From NCBI GenBank assembly GCA_951406725.2, contig OX597816.1, forward strand, positions 180,172,001 to 180,236,000: a DNA stretch of 64,000 bases. Reading direction: 5' to 3'. Below, in pieces: positions 6,758-47,586 of the stretch (its first letter is position 1; every line of letters begins with the position of its first letter). The stretch is from Octopus vulgaris (taxonomy: Eukaryota). The notes under the pieces were generated by a model. The model was not told the origin of the DNA. It made no database searches and was given only the letters and a program-made list of their open reading frames with translations. Position numbers and translations under genes: made by a program.

Positions 6758-7847
6758 AGTGTGTATTTTATATATATATATCTATGTATGTATGTGTGTG
6801 TGTGTAGAAATGATTGATTTTAAATTACTATTTTCCTGAAGTAGCCATGTTATATATTGGTAAAAAGATTCCTTATCTTTTTTTCTCCTTTTCTGAGGTG
6901 GGTTGGAGTGGTGGTAGAGCATCATTTTGCTAGGTCTAACATCATTTCCTGGTCCATGGATGCTTTTAAGTGATATGTATGTGTATATATGCACGTGAAA
7001 TGCATATGTGTATGTATGTGTACATGCACATATATTTAGATATGCATAGCTATGTGTGTATACATCTATGAGTGTGTAAAAGTATGTGTGCATTTATACA
7101 CAACAGTACTGTGTTATTTCCTGCTCCCAGTTTCACTGACTCAAATTACAAATCCTATTAATCACAAGTGATTAATATTTCTGAATTCAAGGATACTTCA
7201 GGCACAATGCCATTTATGACTATACATAAACTGGCATTTTGCAATGATAAAATATACCATCATGTGCATATTGTTAATAATACTTAGTAAATTTATGCTA
7301 CTCAATTGAGCTAACCATTTAAGCAAAATCCGGTTGTTACCTCCCTCACATTGTCATATTGTGCTTATAACAAGACACTTTATGATTCAGCGTTGGTGTT
7401 TTATGTATAGTCACACATAGCATTACATCTGAAAGATCTTTGAATTCAAATATATTAATCGCTAGGATTAATAAGATTTGTAATTCGTCCACAGAATCTA
7501 ACAGTAGTGAATAACATATATCCATTTTATACTGAATAAATAAACATCCTCATTCTATGGAATTACCAAGTTTTCTCTGTTTCAGTCTGTTATCATTTGC
7601 TGACAACAAGCAGGCTTTATCATCATTATCGTTATCTTTTAATGCCCATTTTTCCATACTTGCATGATTTAGATACACTGTCAACAACATTCTTCTTTAA
7701 GAATAATATATACATGTGATGTGTGTGAAAGTATGTGGCTTGGTGGTTAGGGTATTAAGCTCATGATTGTAAGATTATGAGTTCGAAAACTGACCACGCA
7801 TTGTATCCTTGAGCGTTGTATCACATTTATATACATATATATATATG

Positions 7848-8026
7848 TACCGTTGGCGATTTTTTTTCCTCTGTCTTCCCTTCTCCCATGTTTCCGACGA
7901 AGAGCTCCGCTCAAAAAGTTAAACCCTCCTTCTTCCCTTCCTTCCTGAGCGTCCAATAATACTGTATTTGTTCCACGTCCTTGCGTTGTTGTGTTTTCTC
8001 TTTGTGTTTTCATGTTTGGATTAACT
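7848..8026 (+). mobile_element. short non-autonomous PLE-like element with decayed HHR (7890-7924)
   Basis: homologous to 43326-43530(-); gttt-CCGACGA-a-gagc-tcc-gctc-AAAAA-gtt-aaac; TA on both sides. Confidence 0.6.
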
Positions 8027-18020: not shown

Positions 18021-19941
18021 TAAGAAAGTTGGTTTGTGAAAGCACGTGGTTGAATATATAGAAAATAGTAAAAAGTGAAAAAACTACAGAAGGCTTAAAG
18101 GTTAAAAAATATATTTGCGTCAATATGTCGGTAGAATATTAAAAATTTTTTTCCTTACAATGACATAATTTAGAAGAAAGACTGGTTTCGCGTTTAGCTT
18201 TTCAAATTTCTTACGACGTTATGTTTATGTTGAATAGAGTTATCGTTATGTTTATGTTTAAAAGAGTTCTAAATAAGGGGAGGTAATGAGTGATTTCTTC
18301 CGGTGTAAGGGAGATAATCGCTTAAAATTTTTTTCCTTTCCCTTGGTGTGAATTTCTCTGTATCAGTATGTTGGCATGGTTAAGTCTGGGCTTGTGCTTT
18401 TCAATGAAGAGTGTTTCCTTGTTTAGTCTAATTTGTGTTGATGATCCGATAGCACATTGGTAAAATGGAAAGATTAAAAATTGTGGTAGTAGTTGCTTTG
18501 CGCATTTCTCAATGTGCTCACTAAAAGGTATCATTCTGTATTCTGGGAATGCAATCTGTTGTCGATGCAGTGTGCATCTATGTCTGAGTGATAGTCCCGT
18601 GGATCCCACGTAGTCTTGGTGGCAGCCTGAGCATTTTATGACATAAATTGTTTTCAGAGGCACAAGTAAAGTTAGATTTGATCTTGAATTTCTGTCCCTC
18701 TTTAAAGAGGAATTCTGATCCTTCTAGCAGGTTTGGACATGTTGTACAGTTCGATCTACCACATTTTTTTACTTTTGCATCCGTAATTTCAGAAAACAAT
18801 TTTGCCTTTGTGAGAATCTTTTTAAATGATTTAGGTTGTTTGTAGCTTTTAATGATTTGGTGTATGTTTAGAATTTCCTTTAATTTGGGGTCCTTATGAA
18901 GTATTGGTAAATTCTGGGTGATGATGGTGAAGGCTTCTTTGTTTCTGGGGTTGTATGTAGATATGTAAGGTAGTATTTTCGGGGAAGGTGTGTTGTGGTG
19001 TTGAACTTTTCTTAAAGTTTCTATGTTGATTTCTGTTGCACGTCTGATCCCATCCTCTATGAGTTGAGCTGGGTAATGTCTGTCAATTAGGGTGTTTTTG
19101 AGTTCTTGCAGTCTAAAGTTCCTGGTATTTTGTTCTGACACTATTGTGCATATCCTTCTTGCAAGGTTGAAGGGGATGTTTGTTTTAGTGTGTCTTGGGT
19201 GGCATGAATTAAAAGAAGGTATTGTTTGGCGTCTGTGGCTTTGTAAAAAACGTCTGTTTCTATTTTAAGGTTAATTTTTTTAATTAGTATATCCAAGAAC
19301 GGGAGCTCCTTTTGGTTGTATTTCATTGTGAACTGTATATTTGGGTTTATGCTGTTCAATAGGTTTTTAAATTTTATGAGTTTATCTGTGTTTTCATTCC
19401 AGAGTATAAAACATTCGTCTAAGGATCGTTTCCAATTCTATTTTACGTATTGAGAAAGGGGGTTTCCAAAGATTGATAAAGATTCCTGGTAAATGATTAT
19501 TTCCATGTAGCCCATTGTTAGGTTCGCAATGACTGGTGCTGCCCTTGTACCCATAGCAATTCCGGATTTTTGACGGTAAAATGTATTGTCAAACATGAAG
19601 TAGTTATTATGTAGGATGAATTCAATTGATTTAGTAATGAATTCTTTACTGATCCTTTTTGGTATTTCTTCCGGAAATTGGTCCAGCCAGAACTGTATTG
19701 CCTCTAGTCCATAATTATGAGGTATACTGGTATATAAGTTAACTACATCAAATGAAACCAGGATTGTTTCTTCCTTGGCTTTTTTTGGAAGGTGGTTTAA
19801 CATATCTAAGTCATCTCTGATATGGCTATCGATATGTTTAAGGAAGGGTTTCAGGAGGATGTCCATAATTAGACTTAGTCTGTGTGTTTCACAGGTTGGG
19901 CCAGCTACAATGGGTCGTAGTTTTAGGTCCCCCGGGTTAGG
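18020..19941 (-). mobile_element. 5'-truncated Penelope-like element (Neptune/Nematis type; RT, Zn knuckle, GIY-YIG), frameshifted
   Basis: LRPIVAGP, SFDVVNLYTSIP, GIAMGTRAAP, LPFLDILI, KCGRSNCTTC, IYVIKCSGCHQDYVGSTG; TA arrays on both sides. Confidence 0.92.
18174..18212 (-). ncRNA. minimal hammerhead ribozyme-like motif in PLE 3' pLTR (variant core)
   Basis: aagaaa-t-TTGAAAA-gc-taaac-gc-GAAAC-CA-GTC-tttctt; 6-bp stem I. Confidence 0.55.
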
Positions 19942-27471: not shown

Positions 27472-30280
<2,809 letters not shown>

Positions 30281-39648: not shown

Positions 39649-39656
39649 ATATATAT

Positions 39657-39790
39657 AATCCAAATAAACAGGTAAAATTAACAGACTAAAGGATGTGCAC
39701 AGTGAAAGGAGAGAGTTTGACATTTCGAGCATAGCTCTTCATCGGAAAGGAGAAAGGGAATAGTCCAAAGAAGGAAATCACCAACAGCAT
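39657..39790 (-). mobile_element. short PLE-like element with HHR (39716-39748)
   Basis: ttt-CCGATGA-a-gagc-tat-gctc-GAAAT-GTC-aaa. Confidence 0.6.
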
Positions 39791-40249
39791 GTGTGTGTGC
39801 GTATGTGCACGTGTATATATATATATATATATATATGTACACACCAACTAGAGTACCAGTACTGCATGTACAAGAAAAGATTAAATTTATAAACAAAGTT
39901 ACAATCAAGTTTTAAAAGTTTTATGAAAACATTAGAATTTCCACCCCTATCACTCACATACACCTGAGATTAAACAACAAGGGTCTCAGGAAAGGTCAGT
40001 TAATCAATTAGTTCTGGTTTGCATTAAAAGGTTTGTCAGGATTCAATTATTTACACCTGACTGCCGAGAAATAGTAATGAGCAGCCAGTTCATGAATTAT
40101 GTAAACAGAATCAGGATAGGCCTGACCTTATACATATGCCAGAAGAAGAATAGGACATACCTAGTGACAAAGCTACAAGTTTATCTCTGTTGCTCCATGT
40201 ATCAGATGGAAAGTGGTAATGATGATGATGATGACAATATGTGTGTGTG

Positions 40250-41634: not shown

Positions 41635-41978
41635 TTCGACAGCCTCGTCTGGCACCTGTGTCCGTGGCACATAAGAAAACACCGAAAACACCATCCGAGC
41701 ATGGCCGTCTGCTAGCCTCGTCTAGCACCTGTGTCGGTGGCACATAAAAAACACCATCCGAGCATGGCCGTCTGCCAGCCTCGTCTGGCACCTGTGTCGG
41801 TGGCACATAAAATCACCCACTACACTCTCGGAGTGGTTGGCGTTAGGAAGGGCATCCAGCTGTAGAAACACTGCCAGATCTGACTGGCCTGGTGCAGCCT
41901 TCGGGCTTGCCAGACCCCAGTTGAACCGTCCAACCCATGCTAGCATGGAAAGCGGACGTTAAACGATGATGATGATGA
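41635..41978 (+). mobile_element. (GAT)n-tailed SINE with tandem ~57-66-bp internal units
   Basis: gcctcgtctggcacctgtgtcggtggcacataa x3. Confidence 0.8.
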
Positions 41979-43325: not shown

Positions 43326-43525
43326 AAGTTAATCCAAACAAGAAAGCACAAAAAAACACAACAACGCGAGGACGTGGAACAAATATAGTATTATTGGACG
43401 CTCAGGAAAGAAGGAGGATTTAACGTTTCGAGCGGAGCTCTTCGTCGGAAACATAGGAGAAGGAAAGATCCAGAGAAGGGAAGACAGAGGAAAAAAATAC
43501 CCAACGGTATACACGCAGTCACATT

Positions 43526-43530
<5 letters not shown>
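43326..43530 (-). mobile_element. short PLE-like element with minimal HHR (43418-43452)
   Basis: gttt-CCGACGA-a-gagc-tcc-gctc-GAAACGTT-aaat; palindromic AACGTT stem III; TA flanks. Confidence 0.7.
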
Positions 43531-43579
<49 letters not shown>

Positions 43580-43584
<5 letters not shown>

Positions 43585-46869: not shown

Positions 46870-47060
46870 GTAAATTAAAAACAAAAACAGGAAAACCAGC
46901 AAAAGTCAAAAGAACATACACAGTGTATATATATTTGATTGATGTTCAGAGAAAGGGAAAAAGAGGAGCGGTGGGACATTTCAAGTATGGCTCCTCGTCG
47001 GAAAGAGGACACAGGAAAATGTCCAGAGAGAAGGAAAAGAATAGTCTGAGAAATGCACAT
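46870..47060 (-). mobile_element. diverged short PLE-like element with decayed HHR (46973-47004)
   Basis: ttt-CCGACGA-ggagc-cat-actt-GAAAT-GTC. Confidence 0.45.
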
Positions 47061-47586
47061 GTGTTGTTACATATATATTATACACATAAATCATTTATGT
47101 ATACATATGCATATATATTTGTGTGTGTGTGTGTGTGTGTGTGAAATTATATAAGTTATATTCCATGGTGGACAAACTGTCCCTTCACCATGGAAATATT
47201 CCTGTTTTCCTAGTGTGTGAAAGATGGTCACTGCAGATGTCTAGTTTTCTCCATAATCACCGGCAAAGGTCTTGAAAGGATGTTCAGGGTTTAGCGATGG
47301 AGTGAAACATCCTTTCCCTGACCCAGCTCACTATGATGTTACCATAGCCCTATTGCCTCTCAACATATGCACACACACACACACACACACACATCATACT
47401 GTTTCATTGTCAGTTTCACAACATCATGTGTACCTTTCTACATATACTACAAATAAATATATGGTTGTAACTCGATTTAATTGTTTTCTTTCCCTTATTC
47501 ATTTTCTTCTACGTCCTTACCTAAAAGTAAATTAATAATAGAAATATTAAAATTACTAAGTCTCTCTAAAGGAGATTACGGCAGCG

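What the first reader, a model, noticed from the sequence alone, without database searches (positions are those of the whole stretch)
43326..43530. ~200-bp family with CCGANGA-A-GAGC-NNN-GCTC-GAAAYGT hammerhead (four copies)
Seen: copies at 7848(+), 39657(-), 43326(-) and 46870(-) share this core, a pyrimidine-rich flank and a T-rich 3' part ending ..tttggatta in three copies, while the rest diverges and the stem II loop varies (tcc/tat/cat). The U4C core and zero-nucleotide stem III loop imply obligate dimerisation. Inference: a retrozyme-like or solo-pLTR family in which the ribozyme is the conserved part.
Basis: partly seen in the sequence, partly recalled or inferred. Interest (0 to 1): 0.7.

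Follow-up and report, generated by a model that had tools for sequence, protein, structure and literature searches.

The report
Variant hammerhead in Penelope element ends
These 200-base repeats are the clipped tail ends of a still-spreading Penelope-type jumping gene and carry a small, probably slow self-cutting RNA of a known kind; the unusual point is that the same change of a normally fixed catalytic letter is found in three unrelated young jumping-gene families of this genome.

Summary
The four copies are real (none in shuffles; 9,500 exact cores genome-wide). They are not a retrozyme. They are 5'-truncated ends (pseudo-LTRs) of a Neptune-type Penelope-like retrotransposon: an intact 949-aa RT/GIY-YIG family carries the identical core 2.6-2.9 kb after its stop in 15 of 15 loci, and copies of the window's subfamily run back into that ORF. 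The motif fits the published minimal type I hammerhead except for U4C. The core is conserved between subfamilies but not among inserted copies; two of the four window copies are damaged. 5' ends pile up at a conserved TTCA about 110 nt before the predicted cut, probably the transcription start, which would explain the ~215-nt size. Junction density drops about fivefold across the predicted cut, a weak hint of cleavage. U4C also marks the youngest haplotypes of two unrelated families, but it reverted in one sublineage, so tolerance is as likely as selection. Cleavage and dimer formation are untested. Earlier notes of this scan reported such hammerhead-bearing ends and other core variants on other DNA of this genome.

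The parts
43327..43530 (-). Solo pseudo-LTR (subfamily A) of a Neptune-type Penelope-like element, from TTCAAAATG to GGATTAACT
   Evidence: 97.5% to the subfamily majority; sister copies extend into the ORF
43418..43452 (-). Minimal type I hammerhead: stem I GUUU/AAAU, core CCGACGA (C at position 4 = 43447), extra A, stem II GAGC-UCC-GCUC, GAAA, palindromic ACGU; predicted cut between 43422 and 43421 (GUU)
   Evidence: published consensus in PMC4209133 supplement; cut position inferred
43521..43530 (-). TTCA border, likely transcription start in the pseudo-LTR
   Evidence: 5' ends pile up here; start of transcription inferred
43531..43582 (.). (TA)n target microsatellite on the 5' side
7846..8026 (+). 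Subfamily A copy with G12A and C15.2A, predicted inactive
39655..39795 (-). Subfamily B copy with internal deletion; core intact, C15.2 decayed to T
46878..47077 (-). Subfamily C copy (most diverged), stem II broken, predicted inactive
27723..27767 (-). Hammerhead with CCGAAGA core (U4C) of a second, unrelated young Penelope-like family
28378..29628 (-). RT part of that second Penelope-like element, 32% identical to the 949-aa protein

Best explanation
The repeat is the 3' end (pseudo-LTR) of a Neptune-type Penelope-like retrotransposon that inserts into (TA)n, and its ~215-nt size likely arises because the element's enzyme starts copying inside the RNA about 113 nt past the hammerhead and stops at the RNA's 5' end about 110 nt before it. 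Shown: the link to the ORF, the fixed 3' end, the (TA)n targets, the 5' pile-up at TTCA, and conservation of the core between subfamilies but not among inserted copies. Inferred: TTCA is the transcription start; copying starts internally as in the anole Poseidon element; some solo copies may themselves be transcribed and recopied. Predicted: the hammerhead cuts slowly, only as a pair or with help from the element's protein, so that most templates are uncut; U4C is a tolerated, rate-lowering change. The window copies are passive insertions.
For: Same 26-nt core 2.6-2.9 kb after the ORF stop in 15 of 15 loci (first 15 of 150 rows; one reads CTGA) and in two tandem arrays of ~6.2-kb period. 94 of 150 scored hits are 100% identical over 189 aa. 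The protein has DKG, YIDD, CX4CxxC, GIY-YIG-like and CCHH motifs. 2 of 20 5'-extended subfamily A copies reach ORF pieces 82-91% identical (7 of the 20 were picked from loci already inspected). Of the first 30 pattern hits, 15 start at -93..-111 from the cut and none at -112..-158; 710 matches join (TA)n within 3 nt of TTCA; 6 of 7 junctions in the active family fall at the homologous TTCA. Junctions: 5 in the 12 nt before the cut, 68 in the 28 nt after it (73 loci, hand count; p about 1e-6). Internal priming, protein-assisted cleavage and uncut RNA as main template: PMC11167929. Start of transcription in the upstream repeat, internal promoter: PMC2377424. U4C lowers activity in vitro: PMC3088659.
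Against: No RNA ends were seen: only assembled contigs of runs guessed to be RNA were available. The step at the cut may reflect poor microhomology of the GC-rich core with (TA)n or a polymerase stall at the fold; the cut itself (10 junctions in 3 nt) is hardly above the downstream level (58 in 25 nt). The test in subfamily B, which lacks TA at the cut, gave one locus only. Short TTCA-start copies are rare in the active family (7 loci) but abundant in A, so direct copying alone does not explain the numbers. The double-hammerhead fold is far above the best alternative dimer (-3.1 against -22.5 kcal/mol; no tertiary contacts in the model), and stem I of the active family has a U-U mismatch.
Confidence: 0.75

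Rival explanations
1. A non-autonomous, SINE-like solo pseudo-LTR lineage: short copies with an internal promoter are transcribed and recopied by the Neptune protein.
For: Copies joining (TA)n exactly at TTCAAAATG are mostly one haplotype (G in 59 of 70 rows; 451 exact matches), whereas copies reaching further upstream are mostly T (91 of 100, G 5 of 100). The window's 43.3-kb copy reads as the G type with a CpG change.
Against: Long G-type copies exist (L164, L179). No 5' flank beyond the microsatellite is shared in register among 30 precise copies, apart from one 68-bp match. The anole enzyme needs downstream ORF sequence on its template.
Confidence: 0.35
2. A non-LTR retrozyme: tandem ~215-240-nt units cut out by paired hammerheads, circularised and copied round the circle.
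For: One head-to-tail dimer with a (TA)n spacer among 30 best hits (L024); size within the 150-450 bp range of retrozymes.
Against: Mostly solo copies; the unit continues upstream into a 3' UTR and ORF; none of 30 precise copies has a head-to-tail neighbour.
Confidence: 0.08
3. The hammerhead no longer cuts; the fold is kept as a signal for the element's protein, and U4C is a sign of relaxed catalysis.
For: U4C, weak stem I, unfavourable dimer energy; catalytic mutants do not affect insertion in vitro in the anole element; position 4 switches both ways.
Against: G5, A6, G8, A9, G12, A13, A14, the NUH site and the ACGU palindrome are unchanged between subfamily majorities, apart from CpG decay in C, while flanks differ at 17-33%; step of 5' ends at the predicted cut.
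Confidence: 0.25

Closest known systems
Minimal type I hammerheads of metazoan Penelope-like elements (Cervera and de la Pena 2014, PMC4209133; main text parts 1-2 of 4, supplement part 2 of 3 and a term search)
   Same: Extra base after A9, G10.1-C11.1, GAAAC-GU-H with palindromic stem III, short stem I, position in the pseudo-LTR, mostly single dispersed copies
   Different: C at position 4 (published consensus CUGANGAH; no CCGA core in the alignment rows seen); 4-bp stem II with 3-nt loop; ~2.8-kb CA-rich 3' UTR
Neptune clade of C-terminal EN+ Penelope-like elements (Craig et al. 2021, PMC8557442; passages and parts of the supplement)
   Same: DKG, RT, CX2-5CxxC linker, GIY-YIG with CCHH, tandem and inverted insertions, microsatellite targets
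   Different: Clade set by motifs and by-eye likeness to the published alignment, no tree; Nematis not formally excluded
Poseidon element of Anolis carolinensis (Frangieh et al. 2024, PMC11167929; parts 1-2 of 4)
   Same: Hammerhead in the pseudo-LTR, AT-rich targets, fixed genomic 3' end downstream of the hammerhead
   Different: There the hammerhead overlaps the ORF start; here the ORF starts ~420 nt after the cut and the 3' end shares TATA with the target
Animal non-LTR retrozymes (PMC7229834, part 2 of 6; bioRxiv 10.64898/2026.07.22.740005, part 1 of 5 and passages)
   Same: Short non-coding unit with a type I hammerhead, tied to Penelope-like elements
   Different: No tandem arrays of the short unit; unit is contiguous with a coding element
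U4C hammerhead variant of a viroid (cited in Perreault et al. 2011, PMC3088659; passages and section 8)
   Same: Same core change, natural, lower activity in vitro
   Different: Rare variant there; here the majority state of three retrotransposon families with thousands of copies

Membership tests
Minimal type I hammerhead of Penelope-like elements | Core CUGANGA ... GAAA | tested here: not met
   CCGACGA (U4C); other core positions intact. Subfamily C and sublineage A0 read CUGA
Minimal type I hammerhead of Penelope-like elements | Extra base after A9, G10.1-C11.1, palindromic stem III, NUH site | tested here: met
   A / GAGC-GCUC / ACGU / GUU or GUC
Minimal type I hammerhead of Penelope-like elements | Helix I closing the motif | tested here: inconclusive
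   4 bp in A, 3 of 4 in the active family, 3 in B, 1 in C
Minimal type I hammerhead of Penelope-like elements | Located in the pseudo-LTR of an RT/GIY-YIG element | tested here: met
Minimal type I hammerhead of Penelope-like elements | Self-cleavage as a dimer | not testable with these tools
   Needs an assay; indirect step of 5' ends only
Neptune clade | RT then C-terminal GIY-YIG with CX2-5CxxC linker and CCHH; DKG | tested here: met
Neptune clade | Placement in the RT phylogeny | not tested
   By-eye likeness to Neptune rows of the published alignment only
Neptune clade | Partial tandems, inverted copies, microsatellite targets | tested here: met
Non-LTR retrozyme | Head-to-tail arrays of the short unit with a hammerhead in each | tested here: not met
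   0 of 30 unselected copies, 1 of 30 best hits, 0 of 30 precise-start copies
Non-LTR retrozyme | Unit independent of a coding element | tested here: not met
Non-LTR retrozyme | Circular monomer RNA | not testable with these tools
   Only contigs available; no joints listed

The most novel reading that the evidence does not exclude
Three unrelated Penelope-like lineages in one animal genome have each fixed the rate-lowering U4C change just as they expanded, because a slow hammerhead keeps the uncut RNA that is the real template; and the solo 215-nt pseudo-LTRs, bounded by transcription start and internal priming site, have become self-propagating mini-elements. Genomic 5' ends would then record both the start of transcription and occasional cleavage in vivo.
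Probability: 0.22. Interest if true: 0.65.

Novelty: new variant of a known kind. Interest (0 to 1): 0.38.

Why it matters
What hammerheads do in Penelope-like elements is open: they are nearly universal, yet dispensable for insertion in vitro. This genome offers natural pairs of sister subfamilies with U4 or C4 in three independent lineages, one with many identical full-length copies, so the rate of cleavage and its effect on copying can be compared directly. Searches that demand CUGA miss these families. As a feature of this window, the copies are ordinary transposon debris.

Tried and rejected
Rfam: nothing at gathering score, one chance CRISPR match at E=5. The RT fragment beside L026 is a decayed Hydra-type element in duplicated segments, not the partner. 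The young 717-aa family is not the partner either; its repeat differs in sequence; I first took it for Nematis, motifs make it Hydra. A sharp peak of 5' ends at the cut looked strong (23 of 64 loci at the cut, 3 at the like AAAC run upstream, 9 at a TAT site; 3 of 67 dropped as mis-anchored) but the downstream control turned it into a step. In the active family 9 of 15 listed loci start at the cut, confounded by ATA microhomology. Subfamily B test: one locus. Untemplated G at TTCA as a cap mark: about 10 G against 6 C, not convincing. General T-to-C drift as the cause of U4C: 2 of 7 changes on the young branch of the second family, no clear bias. RNA runs: no holder on record as RNA, contigs only, no ends or joints. 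Lunse et al. 2017 on variant Penelope hammerheads is not held; it may list U4C. PMC3376415 passages held nothing on U4C.

Full report
Observation. The four copies are at the stated places. The 26-nt core pattern has 4 matches in the window and none in 100 shuffles, and 9,500 exact matches in the 2.8-Gb own genome against 0 for the reversed pattern. Genome size and repeat make-up look octopus-like (inference; earlier notes of the scan say the same). Two window copies are exact; the 7.9-kb copy has lost G12 and the 46.9-kb copy has a broken stem II. The copies belong to three subfamilies, A, B and C. Rfam does not recognise the motif.

The motif. Read as RNA it is GUUU CCGACGA A GAGC-UCC-GCUC GAAAC GU U AAAU. 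This matches the published consensus for minimal hammerheads of Penelope-like elements (CUGANGAH G..C GAAAN, palindrome, NUH; PMC4209133 supplement) at all points but U4C. No CCGA core stood in the alignment rows I saw there, nor in the hammerhead table of PMC8557442. Searches for 'hammerhead' with 'U4C' gave one paper, on a viroid variant with lower activity; searches with CCGANGA-type strings listed nothing on Penelope-like elements by title or abstract start (one listed paper uses CYGANGA and was not read). Lunse et al. 2017 could not be read, so absence from print is not established.

What the repeat is. Copies have a fixed 3' end followed by (TA)n and variable 5' ends. Some run upstream through a CA-rich tract into an ORF. 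That ORF belongs to a young family: 94 of 150 scored hits are identical over 189 aa. All of the first 15 hits carry the same core 2.6-2.9 kb after the stop, and two tandem arrays have one core per ~6.2-kb unit. In tandem junctions the end GGATTAAAATTATA continues into the 5' UTR of the next ORF; in terminal copies it runs into (TA)n. The 949-aa protein has weak RT and GIY-YIG Pfam matches, both under the curated cut-off, and DKG, CX4CxxC and CCHH motifs, the marks of Neptune/Nematis, with by-eye likeness to Neptune rows. 798 relatives passed 1e-50; the few with names are from molluscs, a sea urchin and a coral. The window's subfamily A is a sister: 2 of 20 extended copies reach ORF pieces 82-91% identical.

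Not a retrozyme. Of the first 30 pattern hits, 24 are alone within 1.5 kb, 3 have a same-strand neighbour 0.7-0.9 kb away and 3 an inverted one; among the 30 best BLAST hits one is a head-to-tail dimer; none of 30 precise-start copies is in a head-to-tail array.

Conservation. Between majority sequences of N (active), A, B and C the 23 non-loop core positions differ at 0-3 sites, the flanks at 17-33% (Fisher p 0.003-0.2; pairs are not independent, and the families were found through the core). Among 28 of 30 copies picked by an upstream pattern, the core has decayed like the flanks (non-CpG 10 of 440 against 134 of 3,851; CpG 16 of 274 against 17 of 320). Selection thus acts in source elements, not on scattered copies.

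Why about 200 bases. Of the first 30 hits, 15 begin 93-111 nt before the predicted cut and none at 112-158. 710 matches join (TA)n within 3 nt of TTCAAAATG, and junctions thin out quickly upstream. TTCA stands at the same border in A, B, C and N, and 6 of 7 junctions in N fall there. Drosophila Penelope starts transcription in the upstream repeat from an internal promoter, and the anole enzyme starts copying inside its RNA. I infer that a transcript starting at TTCA and primed about 113 nt past the cut yields exactly this solo piece, and that full-length copies need tandem transcripts. Against this as the whole story, short copies are rare in N (7 loci) and precise-start copies in A are mostly one haplotype (59 of 70 rows, against 5 of 100 among copies reaching further), which hints at recopying of solo copies; long copies of that haplotype exist too.

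Does it cut? Junctions with (TA)n number 5 in the 12 nt before the predicted cut, 10 in the 3 nt after it and 58 in the next 25 nt (73 loci counted by hand from the first 100 rows). A step there is what a minority of cut templates would leave, but microhomology or a stall could give the same. From reverse-strand counts (149, 308) such copies number some hundreds against 9,500 that span the core, so most templates were uncut, as found in vitro for the anole element. The double-hammerhead fold is not favoured by nearest-neighbour energies. No RNA ends were available.

U4C recurs. In the window itself, at 27,762 (-), a second young family has CCGAAGA in different helices: 1,702 matches; in the first 100 rows 66 of 68 C4 copies share one loop and 31 of 32 U4 copies have other loops; C4 copies differ by 1.8%, the two U4 groups by 4.3% and 9.9% (20 loci). 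A Hydra-type 717-aa family has CCGAAGA too: 5,145 matches, 75 C4 and 25 U4 in the first 100 rows, C4 on the uniform haplotype; the published Hydra-1_Obim has CUGA. In the present superfamily C reads TG at 16 of 21, B CG at 22 of 32, A 108 of 127, N 24 of 26. Against selection: sublineage A0 reads TG at 7 of 9 and groups within A on a weakly supported tree, a probable reversion; other hammerhead families in the fetched loci keep CUGA; and with some 30 recently active Penelope families reported for Octopus vulgaris three such changes could arise by tolerance alone.

Verdict. A real feature and a new variant of a known kind: solo pseudo-LTRs of a Neptune-type element with a minimal hammerhead. 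Earlier notes of this scan reached the same general reading for other DNA of this genome and list other core variants; look-ups for U4C and for this sequence returned nothing. Interest 0.38.

Noticed in passing
window 27723-29628 (-): Young Penelope-like element of another family; 240 bp around its hammerhead are identical to L196:538-777. CCGAAGA core, U-U at 10.1/11.1, palindromic AGUACU stem III; tandems of 4,271-bp period elsewhere.
   Followed up: yes
window 18553-19938 (-): Decayed third Penelope-like ORF ending near a (TA)n run; no clear hammerhead found.
   Followed up: partly
L063:1429-3582 and repeats: Young Hydra-type element, 717-aa frame, 2.59-kb tandems, CCGAAGA hammerhead with a bulged stem II.
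   Followed up: yes
L206:6222-9093: About 2.8-kb CA-rich 3' UTR between ORF and hammerhead in the active family, unusually long for this class.
   Followed up: no
L158-L187 upstream of TTCA: CTTCCGG, an ETS-like motif (recalled), lies just upstream of the inferred start in subfamily A and in some C copies.
   Followed up: no
L028, L121, L252: Inverted pairs of copies separated by short (TA)n, as expected for priming on both target strands.
   Followed up: no
L031-L036: The same solo copy beside a decayed Hydra-type ORF at five places on one contig: segmental duplicates.
   Followed up: partly
window 41685-41812: Two head-to-tail copies of a 63-bp unit.
   Followed up: no
L220:5479 (+): Another hammerhead-like motif with CCGACGA whose relatives read CTGATGA; possibly a fourth U4C case.
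   Followed up: no
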